From positions 1,888,001 through 1,952,000 of the forward strand of contig OZ219866.1 in NCBI GenBank assembly GCA_964291675.2: DNA of 64,000 nt, given 5' to 3'. The translations under genes were made by a program, and so were the position numbers. Position 1 is the stretch's first letter, and each line of letters opens with the position of its first letter. Positions 9,992 to 53,174 of the stretch are shown piece by piece. The DNA comes from Alphaproteobacteria bacterium (GTDB lineage Bacteria > Pseudomonadota > Alphaproteobacteria > MPNO01). Below the pieces are notes generated by a model. The model had not been told where the DNA came from. It was given only the letters and a program-made list of their open reading frames with translations, and did no database searches.

Positions 9992-10868
9992 GGGGCTTAT
10001 CACCGCTACTCGACGGAACGTCAGCTGGCGCAGACCGGCGGCGGGAACGCCGCCCGCACGGCCGCCGGTTGGGAGGGGTGGCGCCAGTGGGTGCCCGGAT
10101 CAAGTCCGGGCATGACGGGGTGGGGGGCATGGCGACGGGGCGGGCCGCGCCCGGCTCTTCCTGCTTCTCCACCGCCACCACCACCACGTCATGGCCGGAC
10201 TTGATCCGGCCATCCATACCCCTCCGCACGCACGGCGACTCGTGTGGAGGCATGGCGATCGGGGCGGGCCGCACCCGGCTCTCCATGCACCGCTCATGGA
10301 TGCTCGGAACAAGTCCACTGCTGTGCGGTTTAGATTTTCGACGCGGGCTCCGCGCCCGTGAGCATCTGCATCTCCGCTCCCGCTGTTACCCCTACGTCAT
10401 GGCCGGCCCCCGGATCAAGTCCGGGGGTGATCCGGCCATCCACGCGGCCTCTCCGCCCGCACGACGGTCCGACGAGAGGGGCGGCGGCGCCCATGGATGC
10501 CCGGATCAAGTCCGGGCATGACGAGGGAGGGCCGAGGGCGACGGCGGCATGCGACGACGCGTCGCGCGTGTCGCGATCCGTGTCCCGATCCGGCGGATGG
10601 GCCGGAAATCCGCGCGTACCGAGGCTTTGCGCCCGGTCCAGCTCATCCAAACCGGACAGCAGTGGACTCGATCCGGGCATCCACTGGCGCCGCCGCTCCT
10701 CCCGACGGGGCGTTGTACCGGTGGCGCCAGTGGTTGCGCGGATCAAGTCCGCGCATGGGTGGCCGGATCAAGTCCGGCCATGACGGGGTGGTGGTGGCGG
10801 TGGAGGAGTACGGGAGCCGGGGGCGGCCCGCCCGCCCGTGGGTGCCCGGAACGAGTCCGGGGTGACAC
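9992..10868. repeat. Repeat cluster: MITE-1 left end, REP-B copies and one MITE-2 (10316..10664)
   Basis: CTTCGATA|GGGGCTTATC at 9984..10001; many CCGGATCAAGTCCGG; TIRs CACTGCTGTGCGGTTT / AAACCGGACAGCAGTG. Confidence 0.85.
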
Positions 10869-39248: not shown

Positions 39249-39965
39249 GGGGCTTACATGGATGGGTTGACGGGCGGTTGGCTGGCGCAGACTGCCGACG
39301 GGAACGCCGCCCCGCCTGCCCCCTCCCGTCATGCCGGGACTTGATCCACTGCTGTCCGGTTTAGATTTTCGACGCGGGCTCCGCGCCCGTGAGCATCTGC
39401 ATCTCCGCTCCCGCTGTTACCCCTACGTCATGGCCGGACTTGATCCGGCCATCCACGCGGCCTCTCCGCCCGCACGACGGTCCGACGAGAGGGGCGGCGG
39501 CGCCCATGGATGCCCGGATCAAGTCCACTGCTGTCCGGTTTAGCCTTCGACGCGCGTCGCGCCCGGCGTTTCCCGCCCCATCACCATGCCTCCCCCCATC
39601 GTCATGCCCGGCGCCCGGATCAAGTCCGGCCATGACGGGGTGGGGGTGGCGGTGGAGAAGCACGGGAGCCGGGTGCGGCCCGCCCCGCCCGTAGGTGCCC
39701 GGAACGAGGCCGGGGTGACAACGGAGGGGCAGGGACGGCAAGTGCGGGCGTGCGGCGATCCATGTCCCGATCCGGCGGATGCGTCGATATCCCGCCCGGA
39801 ACAAGGCTTTGCGCCCGGTCCAGCTCATATGAACCGGACAGCAGTGGACTTGATCCGGGCACCCACTGGCACCGCCGCCCCTCCCGGCCGAGCGCCGTGC
39901 GGGCGGAGGGGCTGCATGGGTGGCCGGATCACCCCCGGGCTTGATCCCGGGGCCCGCCATGACGG
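39249..39965. repeat. Repeat cluster: MITE-1 end, REP-B copies and MITE-2 (39347..39846)
   Basis: GGGGCTTACATGGATGGGTTGACG; TIRs at 39347, 39526 and 39832; GGACTTGATCC on both sides of MITE-2. Confidence 0.85.
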
Positions 39966-43779: not shown

Positions 43780-43884
43780 CGCCGCCGCGTGCAGCCGGCG
43801 CTCGGTTCTTCCGTGCCGGCCCGCTTTCCTGGAGACACTTGGAAAGGAGACCCACCGATGCCGCGTAACGCATCCTCAACTACA

Positions 43885-44462
43885 CAAGTCCACTGCTGTC
43901 CGGTTTAGATGCGCTGGATCGGGCGCAAAGCCTTGTTCCGGGCGGGATATCGGCGCATCCGCCGGATCGGGACACGGATCGCCGCACGCCTGCACTTGCC
44001 GTCCCTGCCCCTCCGTTGTCACCCCGGCCTCGTTCCGGGCACCCACGGCCGGGGCGGGCCGCACCCGGCTCCCGTACTCCTCCACCGCCACCCCCACCCC
44101 GTCATGGCCGGACTTGATCCGGCCACCCATGCGCGGACTTGATCCGCGCAACCACTGGCGCCGCCGCCCCTCTCGTCGGACCGTCGTGCGGGCGGAGGGG
44201 CTGCGTGGATGGCCGGATCACCCCCGGACTTGATCCGGGGGCCGGCCATGACGTAGGGGTAACAGCGGGAGCGGAGATGCAGATGCTCACGGGCGCGGAG
44301 CCCGCGTCGAAAATCTAACGGCCGCGGGCCGGGCACCGGACAGCAGTGGATCGAGTCCGGGCATGACGGAAGGGGGCCGGGCATGACGGGGTGGGGCGGG
44401 GCGGCGTTCCCGTCGGCGGTCTCCGCCAGTCGACCGCCCGTCAACCCATCCATATAAGCCCC
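43885..44462. repeat. Repeat cluster inverted relative to 39249..39860 (MITE-2 43891..44348 plus MITE-1 end)
   Basis: TIR CACTGCTGTCCGGTTT at 43891; ACCGGACAGCAGTG at 44335; CGTCAACCCATCCATATAAGCCCC at 44439..44462. Confidence 0.85.
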
Positions 44463-49323: not shown

Positions 49324-50018
49324 GGGGCTTATGCCGAATACTTGACGGGCGGGTGGCCAACGACACTTCTTCCGTCATGCCCGGCCCCCGGATCGAGTCC
49401 GGGGGTGACGAGGGGGGTACATGACGAGGTGGGGCAGCATGGAAGCATGGGGAGCGTTCGGGCGCTCGGGCACGACGCCGGGGTTCGCCGGCGGGCACGC
49501 CGCAGATCGCGCCGCGCGGCCGCGCCGCTCCCCGTGACGCCCGGCCCCCGCTCCTTCTCCCCGTTACTCCACCGACTCCCCCGCTACTCCCCCCGTCATG
49601 CCCGGACTTGATCCACTGCTGTCCGGTTTAGCCTTCGACGCGCGTCGCGCCCGGCGTTTCCCGTCCCATCACCATGCCTCCCCCCATCGTCATGCCCGGA
49701 CTTGATCCGGGCATCCACTGGCGCCGCCGCTCCTCCCGACGGGGCGTTGTACCGGTGGCGCCAGTTGTTGCGCGGATCAAGTCCGCGCATGGGTGGCCGG
49801 ATCAAGTCCGGCCATGACGGGGTGGGGGTCGCGGTGCAGGAGTACGGGAGCCGGGTGCGGCCCGCCCCGGCCGTGGGTGCCCGGAACGAGGCCGGGGTGA
49901 CAACGGAGGGGCAGAGACGGCAAGTGCGGGCGTGCGGCGATCCGTGTCCCGATCCGGCGGATGCGCCGATATCCCGCCCGGAACAAGGCTTTGTGCCCAG
50001 TCCAGCTCACATAAACCG
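49324..50018. repeat. Repeat cluster: MITE-1 left end, REP-B copies and a MITE-2 (from 49614) interrupted by IS110
   Basis: TATCGAAG|GGGGCTTATGCCGAATACTTGACG; TIR at 49614; right TIR split at 50018/51922. Confidence 0.85.
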
Positions 50019-50366
50019 TCATGGTCTCGGCGGTGCTGAGCCACCCCGTGGCATGAAACTCGGGGCGTTCGGCTGAGGGTTTGCCGATCGTCGCGCGGGT
50101 CTGCCGTGGCAGGATGGGAATGGTGGAGGCGGCGACGCGTGAGCGTTCCGTTTATCGGTGATGTGGTTCCCGAGATATAAACTGCTTCCGGCGGTCGGCT
50201 CCGCACCCCGTACTGTGCCCGGCCCGCGGCCGTGGACGCGCGGCAAATCGAACCGCACCCGCTCGACGGGTGCGTGTCCTTCCGACCGCTGTCCCCGCCT
50301 CCACCGTGGCGATGCCACGGCGCGATCCTACGCCGCCGTGGCGAGAGCGCAACGAGGAGGACAGCG
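50019..50366 (+). ncRNA. Candidate IS110 bridge RNA region
   Basis: Long structured non-coding left end; hairpin GCACCCG-CTCGA-CGGGTGC flanked by target-like AATCGAACC and TGTCC. Confidence 0.5.
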
Positions 50367-51617
50367 ATGAAGACGGAAGGCTTGCACGTCGTGCGGCCGC
50401 GCGCGGCGGGTCTGGACGTGCACAAGATGGAGATCACCGCGACGGTTCGCCTGTGCGAGGGCGAGGGCGAGCCGGTGGTGGAGACGCGCTGCTTCAGCTC
50501 GCTTCCGAGCGGTCTGGCGGAGATGGTCGCCTGGCTGACCGGTCGCCGCGTCGAGGCCGCTGTCATGGAAGGGACCGGGATCTACTGGCAGGCGCCCTTC
50601 GCGGCGGTGGAGGCGGCGGGGATCGAAGCGATCCTGGTGCACGCGCGTCAGGTCAAGCAGTTGAAGGGGCGCAAGACCGATGTCGCCGACAGCGTGTGGC
50701 TGGCCTGCGTGTGCCAGTTCGGGCTCTGCACGCCTTCCCATGTTCCCCCCGAGCCGTTCCGGGAGCTGCGCTCGCTGAGCCGCCAGCGGCGTACCCTGGT
50801 CAGGCAGCGCTCGACCGTGCGCAACCGGGTGCAGAAGATCGTCGACCGCGCCGGCCTGCGCATCGGCGGCATCCTCTCCGACGTCTTCGGCGTCAACGGC
50901 CGCAAGATCCTCGACGGGCTGGCGCAAGCCACGCCGCGCGCGGTCATCCTCGCCTCGCTCACCGGCCACGTCGCCAACAAGCTGGAGGGGCTCGGCGAGG
51001 CGCTCTCCCTGAGCCTGGGCGACAACGACCGCTTCATGCTCGGCGATCTGCTGGACGAGCATGACGCGCTCGAGGCGCGCATCGCGTCCTACGGCGAGAA
51101 GATCGACCGGCAGATGACGCCGTGGCAGGAACAGCTCCGCCTGCTGACCACCATCCCCGGCATCGACCGCATCGCCGCCTCGACCATCCTGATCGAGATC
51201 GGCCCGGATATCGAGGCGTTCGCCTCCAAGCAGCACTTCGCCGCCTGGGCCGGGCTCTGCCCCGGCAACAACGAAAGCGGCGGAAAGCGCCGCAACGCGC
51301 GCACCCGAAGGGGCTCCAAGACGCTGCGCGCCAGCCTCGTCGAATGTGCCCACGGCGCGGCCCGAACCAAGGGGTGCCAGTTCGAGGCCCACCACCGCGC
51401 GCTCGCCGCCCGGCGCGGATACAAGCGCGCCATCGTGGCCAGCGCACACAAGATGCTGCGCATCGTTTATGTCGTGCTCAAGACCGGCAGGCCCTACTAC
51501 GACCGCACCGCCGACTACGACGCGCTGATGGTCAAGCGCAACGCCCCGCGCTGGATCCGAATGCTCCGCCGCTACGGCTACATCCAACCCCGGCGCGCCG
51601 AACCCAAGGCCACCTGA
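50367..51617 (+). CDS. IS110 family DEDD transposase/recombinase
   Basis: GLDVHK, VMEGTG, KTDVADS, TIPGI and GLCPGNNESGGK. Confidence 0.95.
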   Translation: MKTEGLHVVRPRAAGLDVHKMEITATVRLCEGEGEPVVETRCFSSLPSGLAEMVAWLTGRRVEAAVMEGTGIYWQAPFAAVEAAGIEAILVHARQVKQLKGRKTDVADSVWLACVCQFGLCTPSHVPPEPFRELRSLSRQRRTLVRQRSTVRNRVQKIVDRAGLRIGGILSDVFGVNGRKILDGLAQATPRAVILASLTGHVANKLEGLGEALSLSLGDNDRFMLGDLLDEHDALEARIASYGEKIDRQMTPWQEQLRLLTTIPGIDRIAASTILIEIGPDIEAFASKQHFAAWAGLCPGNNESGGKRRNARTRRGSKTLRASLVECAHGAARTKGCQFEAHHRALAARRGYKRAIVASAHKMLRIVYVVLKTGRPYYDRTADYDALMVKRNAPRWIRMLRRYGYIQPRRAEPKAT

Positions 51618-51628
51618 CCGGCCCGCAT

Positions 51629-51921
51629 AACGCCGGACCGCCGCGCGGGACCGCTTCGGGCCACATCGGGGAAGTCCACCGCTCGTCTCGCCGCCCCCTT
51701 CCGGCGATCTCAGCCAACTCCCTCCCGGCGTTGGATGGGGCCCTCGCGCGCCCCCACCGAAACTGTTTCACGGCAACGCCGGACCGCCGCGCGGGACCGC
51801 TTCGGGCCACATCGGGGAAGTCCACCGCTCGTCTCCGCCGCCCCCTTCCGGCGATCTCAGCCAACTCCCTCCCGGCGTTGGATGGGGCCCTCGCGCGCCC
51901 CCACCGAAACTGTTTCACGGC
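51629..51921 (+). repeat. Tandem duplication (146/147 bp) of the IS110 right end
   Basis: Copies at 51629..51774 and 51775..51921, both ending AACTGTTTCACGGC. Confidence 0.92.
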
Positions 51922-51998
51922 AACCGGACAGCAGTGGATCGAGTCCGGCCATGACGAGTGGGGGTGCCGGCGGTGAGTTCGCGGCGGCCCGCGCGCCC

Positions 51999-53174
51999 CT
52001 ACAGCAGCGCGTTGTTCGGCGCGAGCCCGGCGGCGATGCGGCCGAACTCGGCGCCGTTGATGTCCCAGGAGAGGTGGATCTGGTGCGCCGCGGCGTGGAT
52101 GTCGCGGTGCTGGCGCTGGAGGTCGCTGGCGAGATAGTTGGCCCTGGCCCCGCAGGCGCCGTGGATCAGGTCGACCGCCTGGACGCAGCAGCGCGCGGCC
52201 CAGGCGCCGTTGCGCCGCCAGCGCGCGCGGTCGATCAGCGGCAGCCGCTCGCGCCCGGCGATCAGCGCCTCGGCCTCCAGGCAGTCCTCGCGCACCAGCA
52301 GGCGCGCGATTTCGACGAGCTGCGCCGCCTCGGCGAGCTTGAGCTGGATCGTCACGTGCTCGGCGACGCGCGAGCGGTTGTAGGTCGAGACCTGCTCCCT
52401 GAGATGGGCGGCGTAGTCGTCATACGCGGCCCGGGCGGCGCCGATCATCGGGGCGGCGACCAGATGCGGGATCAGCGGCAGCAGCGGCAGGCGGTAGGCG
52501 TCGCTCATCCCCTCGGTCTCGGGCGGGTAGCCCTCCCGCGACGGCGCCATGTCGAGCACCATGTGGGCCGGCAGGAACAGATCCTCGCAGGCCACGTCCT
52601 TCGAGCCGGTGCCGACCAGGCCGGAGACCTGCCAGGTGTCGATGATCTCGATGTCGGCGGCGCGCACCAGCACGATGCGCGGGCCGGGCGCGTCGTCCTC
52701 CGGGCCCTGGCCGATCGCGCCCAGCATCATCCAGTCGCTCGAATCCACCCCGCTCGCATAGGGCCAGCGCCCGGTCAGCCGATACCCGCCCTCCGCCGGG
52801 GCGAGCCTGCCGGCGGGGAACACCAGGGTCGAGCCGATCAGCGCGTCGGGGTCCTCGCCCCAGATGTCCTCGGCCGCCCCGGCCGGCCAGTAGGGCAGCA
52901 TCCAGTTATGCGCGACCAGGTTGATATAGACCCAGGAGGTGGCGGCGCAGCCGCGCCCGAGCTCGATGGTCACGTCGATCATCAGCCGGTAATCGGTCTC
53001 CACCCCGCCATAGCGCGCGGGCTTCAAGATGTTCCACAGCCCGGCCGCGCGCAAATCCGCGATCGTCTCGTCGGGGATGCGGCGGATGCGCTCGGCCTCG
53101 GGCGCGCGCTCGCGCAGCACCGGGATCAGGCCGCGCGCGGCGTCGAGGATTTGCTCGCGGGTGGGGTGTGTCAT
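51999..53174 (-). CDS. Flavin-dependent monooxygenase, acyl-CoA dehydrogenase-like (HsaA/C2 type)
   Basis: PARYGG, GRWPYASG, DTWQVSGLVGTGS and QRQHRDIHAA. Confidence 0.85.
   Translation of the reverse strand: MTHPTREQILDAARGLIPVLRERAPEAERIRRIPDETIADLRAAGLWNILKPARYGGVETDYRLMIDVTIELGRGCAATSWVYINLVAHNWMLPYWPAGAAEDIWGEDPDALIGSTLVFPAGRLAPAEGGYRLTGRWPYASGVDSSDWMMLGAIGQGPEDDAPGPRIVLVRAADIEIIDTWQVSGLVGTGSKDVACEDLFLPAHMVLDMAPSREGYPPETEGMSDAYRLPLLPLIPHLVAAPMIGAARAAYDDYAAHLREQVSTYNRSRVAEHVTIQLKLAEAAQLVEIARLLVREDCLEAEALIAGRERLPLIDRARWRRNGAWAARCCVQAVDLIHGACGARANYLASDLQRQHRDIHAAAHQIHLSWDINGAEFGRIAAGLAPNNALL

What the first reader, a model, noticed from the sequence alone, without database searches (positions are those of the whole stretch)
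50014..50366. IS110 with readable target and candidate bridge RNA guides
Filled site ATAAACCG|TCATGG...TTTCACGGC|AACCGGACAG versus empty sites ATGAACCGGACAG (39829) and CAAACCGGACAG (10648) defines the target and junction core. In the left end, AATCGAACC-[GCACCCG CTCGA CGGGTGC]-GTGTCC (about 50246..50279) places a left-target-like sequence and the reverse complement of GGACA on either side of a hairpin. This matches the layout of a bridge RNA target-binding loop as described for IS621. The guide assignment is inference.
Basis: partly seen in the sequence, partly recalled or inferred. Interest (0 to 1): 0.7.

Follow-up and report, generated by a model that had tools for sequence, protein, structure and literature searches.

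The report
IS110 bridge RNA, guides reassigned

Summary
The element is real: an IS110-family insertion sequence (about 50013-51921, 416-aa DEDD recombinase at 50367-51617), present 8 times in this genome and always at the same position of a repeat unit.

The guide assignment is wrong. In 26 related lineages with different insertion sites, the left-end segment that changes with the left flank is 50175-50182 (ATATAAAC). It matches the cognate flank over at least 7 contiguous bases in 25 of 26 lineages.

A second segment, 50146-50155, is complementary to the right flank more than chance allows (0 of 5000 shuffles), but individual matches are short. GCGGCAAA at 50240-50247 copies the right-end tip and covaries with it, so it is the left donor guide.

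Its flanks are conserved in relatives with other targets (shuffle p 0.40 and 0.07).

A five-helix fold is supported by covariation. In this genome, occupancy follows the match to 50175-50182.

The guide order (top-strand match 5' of bottom-strand match) is the reverse of IS621 and ISEc21. No right donor guide was found, and RNA expression is not shown.

The parts
50013..51921 (+). IS110-family insertion sequence. The AA at 50013-50014 and at 51922-51923 is the shared core, so the ends are ambiguous by 2 nt.
   Evidence: 8 copies in the genome share these ends. Junctions are aligned. The 2-nt AA core is inferred from the variable right junctions of a 91%-identical relative.
50015..50024 (+). 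Left-end tip (right donor half), ACCGTCATGG
   Evidence: Conserved as AC-NNN-CATG(G) in all 26 lineages.
50050..50059 (+). Subterminal inverted repeat, left copy (GGCATGAAAC), partner of the right-end tip GTTTCACGGC
   Evidence: 8 of 10 positions are complementary. One column is complementary to right-end position -10 in 23 of 23 lineages, MI 1.62. Own-versus-other excess at this place.
50124..50135 (+). Helix P1, 5' strand (pairs with 50292-50303); closes the whole RNA
   Evidence: 12 pairs, 7 with changes on both sides, 92.5% of cells paired.
50141..50145 (+). Helix Pt, 5' strand (GAGCG; pairs with TGCTT at 50183-50187); closes the target loop
   Evidence: 5 pairs, 2 with changes on both sides, 98.5% paired.
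50146..50155 (+). 5' side of the target loop, TTCCGTTTAT: candidate right target guide (complementary to the top strand, core plus right flank)
   Evidence: Best region of the left end for reverse-complement matches to the cognate right flank. Shuffle test 3.87 against 3.23 +/- 0.16, 0 of 5000. Per-lineage matches run from 2 to 6 nt.
50156..50172 (+). Hairpin Pa between the two target guides
   Evidence: 5 pairs, 2 with changes on both sides, 99.2% paired.
50173..50182 (+). 3' side of the target loop, AGATATAAAC: left target guide. 50175-50182 (ATATAAAC) is identical to the left flank plus core.
   Evidence: Covaries with the left flank in 26 lineages. Shuffle test 4.67 against 2.83 +/- 0.15, 0 of 5000. 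Genome occupancy follows the match.
50183..50187 (+). Helix Pt, 3' strand
50189..50198 (+). Helix P2, 5' strand (CGGCGGTCGG; pairs with CCGACCGCTG at 50282-50291); closes the donor junction
   Evidence: 10 pairs, 4 with changes on both sides, 89.1% paired.
50199..50213 (+). Conserved single strand CTCCGCACCCCGTAC of the donor junction; function unassigned
   Evidence: The C-rich core is conserved in all lineages. No covariation with any flank was found.
50214..50238 (+). Hairpin Pb
   Evidence: 9 pairs, 98.7% paired, mostly invariant, 2 pairs with changes on both sides.
50240..50247 (+). Left donor guide GCGGCAAA, identical to the right-end tip plus core (CACGGC+AA+A)
   Evidence: 6-8 contiguous identities (7-8 in 19, 6 in L074) in the 20 lineages that could be scored. 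CGGC or CAGC in the RNA goes with CGGC or CAGC at the right end. Own-versus-other excess.
50252..50277 (+).
   Evidence: Single-sequence folds gave a hairpin here in most of the 23 lineages that were correctly anchored (3 were mis-anchored). Stem sequences differ between clades. It was not counted on the alignment because MAFFT misaligns it.
50282..50303 (+). 3' strands of P2 (50282-50291) and P1 (50292-50303)
50367..51617 (+). Recombinase gene, 416 aa (DEDD RuvC-like domain plus Tnp domain)
   Evidence: PF01548 at 2.3e-22 and PF02371 at 3.6e-23. NF033542 scores 266.6 bits against a cut-off of 140. IS621 and ISCro4 chains match at E 2e-14 and 1e-14.
51629..51924 (+). 147-bp x 2 tandem duplication of the right end, peculiar to this copy
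   Evidence: TRF reports 99% matches. The 7 other copies lack it.
51912..51921 (+). Right-end tip GTTTCACGGC (left donor half)
51922..51931 (+). Core AA plus right half of the target (CCGGACAG) in the repeat unit
39829..39841 (+). Empty copy of the target (ATGAACCGGACAG)
10648..10659 (+). Empty copy of the target (CAAACCGGACAG)

Best explanation
An IS110-family insertion sequence whose long left end encodes a bridge RNA (seekRNA) of about 180 nt, roughly 50124-50303.

A long helix, P1, closes the RNA around two arms. Arm 1 is the target loop. [quoted passage not shown] That 3' strand would therefore pair with the bottom strand.

Arm 2 is a three-way junction (P2, Pb, Pc). [quoted passage not shown]

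By analogy with IS621, the recombinase-RNA complex would bring the circle junction CACGGC-AA-ACCGTCATGG together with the repeat-borne target CATAT-AA-(A)CCGGACAG and exchange strands at the AA core.

Shown here: the element, its ends, the fold, and the covariation of the left target guide and the left donor guide. Supported statistically but weakly: the right target guide. Inferred only: transcription, protein binding, the circle, and the chemistry.
For: There are 8 copies, all at the same position of one repeat.

The recombinase domains are present. D17, E68, D105 and D108 are invariant in 13 relatives and align with ISCro4.

Left target guide: in 25 of 26 lineages the best site matches over at least 7 contiguous nt, and in 20 of 26 over at least 8. 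Non-cognate pairs reach 7 in 15 of 644. In the shuffle test, 0 of 5000 reach the observed value.

Genome census: sites with 0 mismatches to ATATAAAC are 5 occupied and 0 empty; with 1 mismatch, 3 occupied and 22 empty; with 2 or more, 0 occupied and 394 empty.

Left donor guide: 6-8 nt identical to the right-end tip in the 20 scored lineages (7-8 in 19, 6 in L074), and CAGC or CGGC changes together with the right end.

Right target guide: this is the best region for reverse-complement matches to the right flank, with 0 of 5000 shuffles reaching the observed value. There are 6-nt matches in the L077 and L095 lineages and at the non-repeat site of L011.

Fold: 94.6% of cells are paired against 36-54% when the partners are slid. 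17 of 41 pairs change on both sides, and 0 of 500 shuffles reach the observed value.

The right end shows no comparable signal (largest excess 0.46).

Contigs from RNA libraries cover the left end of 91-95% relatives. This is weak, because DNA can be present in such libraries.
Against: No right donor guide was found by covariation or by direct search.

Right-guide matches are short. The window's own element has only 4 contiguous nt; my hand alignment gives 8 Watson-Crick pairs, 1 wobble and 1 mismatch over 10. Eight lineages show only 2-3 nt.

The 91%-identical relative with 37 copies has nearly unconstrained right flanks.

No Rfam family matches and no sigma-70-like promoter was found.

There is no evidence of RNA ends or strand. 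No circle or head-to-tail junction of this element occurs in its own genome or in the runs laid.

Lineages are related, so shuffle tests overstate independence. The 26 representatives were chosen by me from 37 distinct left ends.
Confidence: 0.85

Rival explanations
1. One reading: AATCGAACC (50246-50254) and GTGTCC (50274-50279), on either side of the hairpin, are the left and right target guides of an IS621-like target-binding loop.
For: AACC and GGACA of the target are matched on the two sides of a hairpin. The 3' segment shows a weak, non-significant excess (p 0.07).
Against: Both segments are unchanged in relatives inserted at unrelated sites. The left segment gives p 0.40. Its first three bases belong to the conserved donor guide GCGGCAAA. 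AC and GT pair as the base of the hairpin. Another segment tracks the left flank in 25 of 26 lineages.
Confidence: 0.03
2. The flank-copying segments act as DNA, not RNA. For example, they could be internal protein-binding copies of the target and end sequences, or products of gene conversion.
For: No RNA ends, strand or protein binding are shown here. The subterminal repeat (50050-50059) is most simply a DNA feature.
Against: The segments lie in the single-stranded parts of a fold that is kept by compensatory changes. That is selection at the RNA level. The same arrangement has been shown experimentally for family members (PMC11208160 section 6; PMC11187229 sections 9 and 12, as read).
Confidence: 0.05
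3. The guide RNA is encoded in the right end, as in IS1111-group elements.
For: A subterminal inverted repeat is present. The right end contains a target-like string (CGCATAA-CGCCGGACC, 51625-51640).
Against: The left end is 354 nt and the right end about 158 nt. No region of the right end matches its own flanks beyond 0.46 excess, against 1.72 for the left-end guide.
Confidence: 0.02

Closest known systems
IS621 and its bridge RNA (Durrant et al. 2024, PMC11208160, sections 6 and 12 read; Hiraizumi et al. 2024, PMC11208158, passages on handshake guides read)
   Same: A DEDD plus Tnp recombinase. The RNA is encoded in the long left end. An 8-9 nt segment is identical to left flank plus core, and another is identical to the right-end tip plus core. 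The core is 2 nt. The target lies in a repeated intergenic element.
   Different: The protein is only distantly related (E 2e-14; 416 aa against 328). In the target loop the bottom-strand-pairing guide is on the 3' side and the top-strand-pairing one on the 5' side, the reverse of IS621. The donor guide sits in a three-way junction, not a simple internal loop. One helix closes the whole RNA. No right donor guide or handshake positions were identified.
ISEc21 seekRNA, IS110 family (Siddiquee et al. 2024, PMC11187229, section 12 read)
   Same: Upstream non-coding region; target matches to both strands within one short RNA.
   Different: In ISEc21 the top-strand match is 3' of the bottom-strand match. 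Here it is 5'.
IS1111-family seekRNAs (ISEc11, ISPa11, ISKpn4; PMC11187229, sections 6 and 9 read)
   Same: The top-strand match is 5' of the bottom-strand match. The matches overlap in the target. A subterminal inverted repeat is present. Donor nucleotides lie in a multi-loop, which PMC11208160 section 12 says of many IS1111 members.
   Different: The RNA is upstream of the gene, not downstream. The recombinase has 416 aa against the 330-350 quoted for IS1111. Its full-length plasmid-borne relatives are actinobacterial, Firmicutes and Burkholderia-group IS110 transposases at 37-43% identity, while most Enterobacterial IS110-family hits sampled align only over the C-terminal third (the naming of those hits is not given, so this placement is an inference).
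ISPpu9 / ISPpu10 of Pseudomonas putida (PMC12288879 and 10.64898/2026.03.19.712850; search listing and abstracts only)
   Same: IS110-family elements that insert into repetitive extragenic sequences present in many copies.
   Different: A different host and a different repeat. Their RNA architecture was not compared here.

Membership tests
IS110 family (RNA-guided DEDD recombinase insertion sequences) | N-terminal RuvC-like DEDD domain | tested here: met
   PF01548 at 2.3e-22. D17, E68, D105 and D108 are invariant in 13 relatives and align with ISCro4.
IS110 family (RNA-guided DEDD recombinase insertion sequences) | C-terminal Tnp domain (PF02371) with the G--P----SG motif | tested here: met
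   PF02371 at 3.6e-23. GLCPGNNESG aligns with the ESG of ISCro4. NF033542 scores above its cut-off. Invariance of the serine was not checked.
IS110 family (RNA-guided DEDD recombinase insertion sequences) | Site-specific insertion without long terminal inverted repeats and without a multi-base target duplication beyond a short core | tested here: met
   8 of 8 copies sit at one position of a repeat. Only AA is shared, by inference from relatives.
IS110 family (RNA-guided DEDD recombinase insertion sequences) | A non-coding end encoding a structured RNA whose loops covary with target and donor | tested here: met
   Fold. Left target guide. Left donor guide. The right target guide is supported only statistically. 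The right donor guide was not found.
IS110 family (RNA-guided DEDD recombinase insertion sequences) | The RNA is made and binds the recombinase | not testable with these tools
   Only contigs from RNA libraries cover the left end of relatives. They show no ends, strand or binding.
IS110 family (RNA-guided DEDD recombinase insertion sequences) | Circular intermediate with abutted ends | tested here: inconclusive
   No abutted ends of this element in its genome. Relatives show head-to-tail junctions CACGGC-AAAC-NNN-CATG (L023, L068, L071). These may be tandem insertions rather than circles.
IS621-type bridge RNA architecture | In each loop the 8-9 nt bottom-strand-pairing guide is on the 5' side and the shorter top-strand-pairing guide on the 3' side; both loops are simple internal loops | tested here: not met
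   The left target guide is on the 3' side of its loop. The left donor guide lies between two hairpins of a three-way junction.
IS1111 group | Subterminal inverted repeats of 7-17 bp | tested here: met
   GGCATGAAAC (50050-50059) against GTTTCACGGC (51912-51921): 8 of 10 complementary, with one column covarying. The left copy lies about 36 nt inside the end.
IS1111 group | Long non-coding region and guide RNA downstream of the gene; recombinase of 330-350 aa | tested here: not met
   Left end 354 nt, right end about 158 nt. No flank-matching region in the right end. Protein of 416 aa.
IS1111 group | Top-strand match 5' of the bottom-strand match in the RNA | tested here: met
   50146-50155 lies before 50173-50182. 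This rests on the weaker right-guide assignment.

The most novel reading that the evidence does not exclude
This clade is a true intermediate between the two described layouts. It has a long IS110-type recombinase with the RNA upstream. Its RNA has the IS1111-type order of target guides, a multi-loop donor junction and a 10-bp subterminal repeat, and one helix closes both arms. On this reading the target loop is a circular permutation of the IS621 loop, and guide order is not tied to which end encodes the RNA. Right-flank reading would be weak or optional, which would explain the 37-copy relative with nearly free right flanks.
Probability: 0.4. Interest if true: 0.5.

Novelty: new member of a known kind. 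Interest (0 to 1): 0.35.

Why it matters
Bridge and seek RNAs are being developed as programmable recombination tools, and natural variants show which parts of the RNA can change.

This element offers a clean natural data set. Twenty-six lineages have different left flanks and matching guide changes. Within one genome, perfect targets are saturated: 5 of 5 are occupied. The relatives differ sharply in how strictly the right flank is read.

It also shows that reading guides off a single sequence is unreliable. A hairpin flanked by short target-like strings can arise by chance, so guides should be assigned by comparison with relatives.

Tried and rejected
Rfam release 15, permissive scan of 49500-52500: only a chance lncRNA match at E 0.32.

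Promoter scan of 49900-52000: 0 sigma-70-like sites. The abutted-ends promoter was not tested, because that would need a joined sequence.

Single-sequence folds of the left end gave z -2.05 and -2.35. These are uninformative in G+C-rich DNA and I did not rely on them.

Right donor guide: mutual information, own-versus-other scan (largest excess 0.34) and direct reverse-complement search gave no consistent place. Ideas that CCGTGGAC (the 3' strand of Pb) or CTCCGCACCCCGTAC pairs with the left-end tip were examined by eye and dropped as unsupported.

Right end as the RNA location: no signal.

Widening the set. The metagenome scan gave 15 loci; 10 were entered into the extraction, 9 passed it (L089 was skipped), and 6 serve as lineage representatives. 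A class-level genome search found relatives in 4 of 401 genomes including the window's own. Loci L105-L107 from it were not used.

Caballeronia plasmid relatives (H7-H10) are all one IS3-family element carrying the IS110 gene, so their ends could not be defined.

Runs laid: no joint that abuts the two ends was listed. Parts of the element have no cover in some runs. Both facts are uninformative, because these are contigs.

Literature search for 'bridge RNA', 'IS110' and 'permut' found no paper that speaks of permuted loops. A 2026 preprint (10.64898/2026.10.21.760802, passages read) says many bridge RNA models deviate from the IS621 structure, so this layout may already be in its data.

Rows dropped before counts. 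L009 is a 52-nt match. L091, L092, L098, L099 and L101 have incomplete left ends. L048, L064, L067, L075 and L089 had no recognisable left tip. L104-L110 are duplicates or were unused. In one search the donor-guide anchor fell on the wrong segment in L013, L059 and L097, and L063, L100 and L102 have no right end.

Full report
**What is there.** The region holds an insertion sequence. Its left junction reads ...CACATAAACCG|TCATGGTC... and its right junction ...CTGTTTCACGGC|AACCGGACAG.... An ORF from 50367 to 51617 (416 aa) carries PF01548 (DEDD_Tnp_IS110, 2.3e-22) and PF02371 (3.6e-23). It also matches NCBIfam NF033542, 'IS110 family RNA-guided transposase', at 266.6 bits against a cut-off of 140. 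Among solved structures only the ISCro4 and IS621 transposases match, distantly (E 1e-14 and 2e-14). The DEDD residues and the ESG motif are aligned.

**Copies and target.** The window's genome holds 8 full copies. All sit at the same position of one repeat unit...CCAGCTCATATAAACCG|IS|A(A)ACCGGACAGCAGTGGA.... AACCGGACAG occurs 8 times in the window against 0.01 expected.

**Relatives.** A scan of species-representative genomes gave 79 loci at 99% to 59% protein identity, and a metagenome scan gave 15 more. Copies within genomes define the ends. Across the clade, elements begin AAAC-NNN-CATG(G) and end TTTC(A/G)C(G/A)GC-AA.

In a 91%-identical relative with 37 copies, the base after CACGGCAA varies and right flanks are diverse. 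The shared core is therefore at most AA; this is an inference. Head-to-tail junctions in relatives read CACGGC-AAAC-NNN-CATG (L023, L068, L071). Ninety-two loci had a recognisable left end, giving 37 distinct left-end sequences. I chose 26 lineage representatives from these.

**Where the guides are.** In the left-end alignments, one short segment changes with the left flank in every lineage. The pairs of RNA segment and flank are:
- window: ATATAAAC / CATATAAAC
- L010: ATCTAAAC / CATCTAAAC
- L014 and L016: GACAAAAC / GACAAAAC
- L057: CACCAAAC / CACCAAAC
- L059: ACGCAAAC / ACGCAAAC
- L077: TGAGAAAC / TGAGAAAC

Other lineages follow the same pattern. The best site per lineage matches over at least 7 contiguous bases in 25 of 26 lineages and over at least 8 in 20 of 26. 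Non-cognate pairs reach 7 in 15 of 644. Against 5000 shuffles of flanks among lineages, the observed score is 4.67 against 2.83 +/- 0.15, and no shuffle reaches it. In the window this segment is 50175-50182. It is identical to the top strand, so as RNA it would pair with the bottom strand. That makes it a left target guide in the sense of Durrant et al. (PMC11208160, section 6).

The invariant GCGGCAAA at 50240-50247 copies the right-end tip CACGGC+AA+A. In six lineages whose right end reads CAGC, the RNA also reads CAGC. This is the left donor guide.

For the right flank, an unbiased scan of the left end put the strongest reverse-complement signal at 50140-50160. The loop 50146-50155 scores 3.87 against 3.23 +/- 0.16, with 0 of 5000 shuffles reaching it. 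Individual matches are modest:
- 6 nt in the L077 and L095 lineages, and at the non-repeat site of L011
- 5 nt in eight lineages
- 4 nt in the window's own lineage
- 2-3 nt in eight lineages

For the window I align TTCCGTTTAT to the top strand ATAAACCGGA as 8 Watson-Crick pairs, one wobble and one mismatch. This alignment is by hand.

No right donor guide emerged. The right end shows nothing comparable.

**The fold.** RNAalifold on the 26 sequences and a manual structure counted on the same alignment give five helices. Of all cells, 94.6% are paired, against 36-54% when the partners are slid. Changes on both sides occur in 17 of 41 pairs, and 0 of 500 shuffles reach the observed covariation.

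The helices are arranged as follows (coordinates):
- P1 (50124-50135 with 50292-50303) closes the RNA.
- Pt (50141-50145 with 50183-50187) closes a loop. Its 5' strand is the right-guide candidate and its 3' strand is the left target guide, with hairpin Pa between them.
- P2 (50189-50198 with 50282-50291) closes a three-way junction with hairpins Pb and Pc. The donor guide lies between Pb and Pc.

Those flanks are the same in relatives with unrelated targets, and they match cognate flanks no better than others (p 0.40 and 0.07).

**Evidence inside the genome.** I took all sites that carry CCGGACAG and compared the preceding 8-mer with ATATAAAC:
- 0 mismatches: 5 occupied, 0 empty
- 1 mismatch: 3 occupied, 22 empty
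- 2 or more mismatches: 0 occupied, 394 empty

**Comparison with known systems.** In IS621 and ISEc21 the bottom-strand match is 5' of the top-strand match. In IS1111-family seekRNAs the order is reversed and the matches overlap in the target (PMC11208160 section 6; PMC11187229 abstract and sections 9 and 12).

Here the order is the IS1111 one, and the donor guide sits in a multi-loop. A 10-bp subterminal repeat (50050-50059 against 51912-51921) covaries with the right end.

Yet the RNA is upstream and the protein has 416 aa. Its full-length relatives on plasmids are IS110 transposases of actinobacteria, Firmicutes and the Burkholderia group at 37-43% identity. Most of the Enterobacterial IS110-family hits sampled align only over the C-terminal third.

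I therefore file it in the IS110 family, not as an IS621-type RNA and not as an IS1111-group element. Whether this mixed layout is already catalogued I cannot tell. A 2026 preprint says many bridge RNA models deviate from IS621, and supplements were closed.

**Expression.** Two metatranscriptome runs hold contigs covering 50157-50327 (X13, 10 differences) and 50010-50076 plus 50153-50253 (X18). These come from 91-95% relatives. Being contigs, they show no ends or strand, and DNA may be present in such libraries. This is only a weak hint. No junction of abutted ends was seen there or in the genome.

**Verdict.** This is a real, ordinary IS110-family element with a well-supported left-end guide RNA. 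It is a new member of a known kind. Its guide order and junction layout are mildly unusual and worth a note.

Noticed in passing
window 51629-51924: This copy alone carries a 147-bp x 2 tandem duplication of the right end. The joint CACGGCAA|CGCCGGACC links the right-end tip to an internal site CGCATAA|CGCCGGACC (about 51625-51640) that resembles the true target CATATAA|(A)CCGGACAG. It looks like a guide-directed recombination into the element's own right end, followed by loss of one copy. A second genome copy (L007) has a 15-bp duplication of the right-end tip.
   Followed up: partly
loci L016-L047, L049, L051, L058, L076, L088 (one metagenome-assembled genome): A 91%-identical relative has 37 copies. 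The left flanks match its guide GACAAAAC over 6-8 nt in 35 of 37 sites, but the right flanks are nearly free. Several copies lie head to tail: 5 have the right-end tip as their left flank. Its own abutted junction resembles its target.
   Followed up: partly
window, e.g. 10590-10720, 39290-39910, 43840-43970, 49560-49690: The target lies in a repeat family (...CCAGCTCAT-N-TAAACCGGACAGCAGTGGA...GATCCGGGCAT...). The genome holds 62 copies of the 17-mer core, and the repeats occur in both orientations and in clusters. The nature of the repeat itself was not studied.
   Followed up: no
L011 (relative at 99% protein identity): One of its three copies sits outside the repeat, at GGCTAA|AGGAGAAC. This site fits that element's right-guide loop (AAAGGA, 6 nt) better than its two repeat sites do (3 nt).
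   Followed up: partly
L111-L114 (Caballeronia sp. SBC2 plasmids): A 37%-identical IS110-family gene lies inside an IS3-family element, 24 nt upstream of the IS3 transposase gene. The arrangement is identical on four replicons. It recalls ISEc21, which targets IS3-family elements.
   Followed up: no
window 50039-50050 and 50203-50213: The motif (C/G)CACCCCGT occurs both in the left-end DNA, just before the subterminal repeat, and in the single strand of the donor junction of the RNA. The two copies tend to change together between clades. The meaning is unknown.
   Followed up: partly
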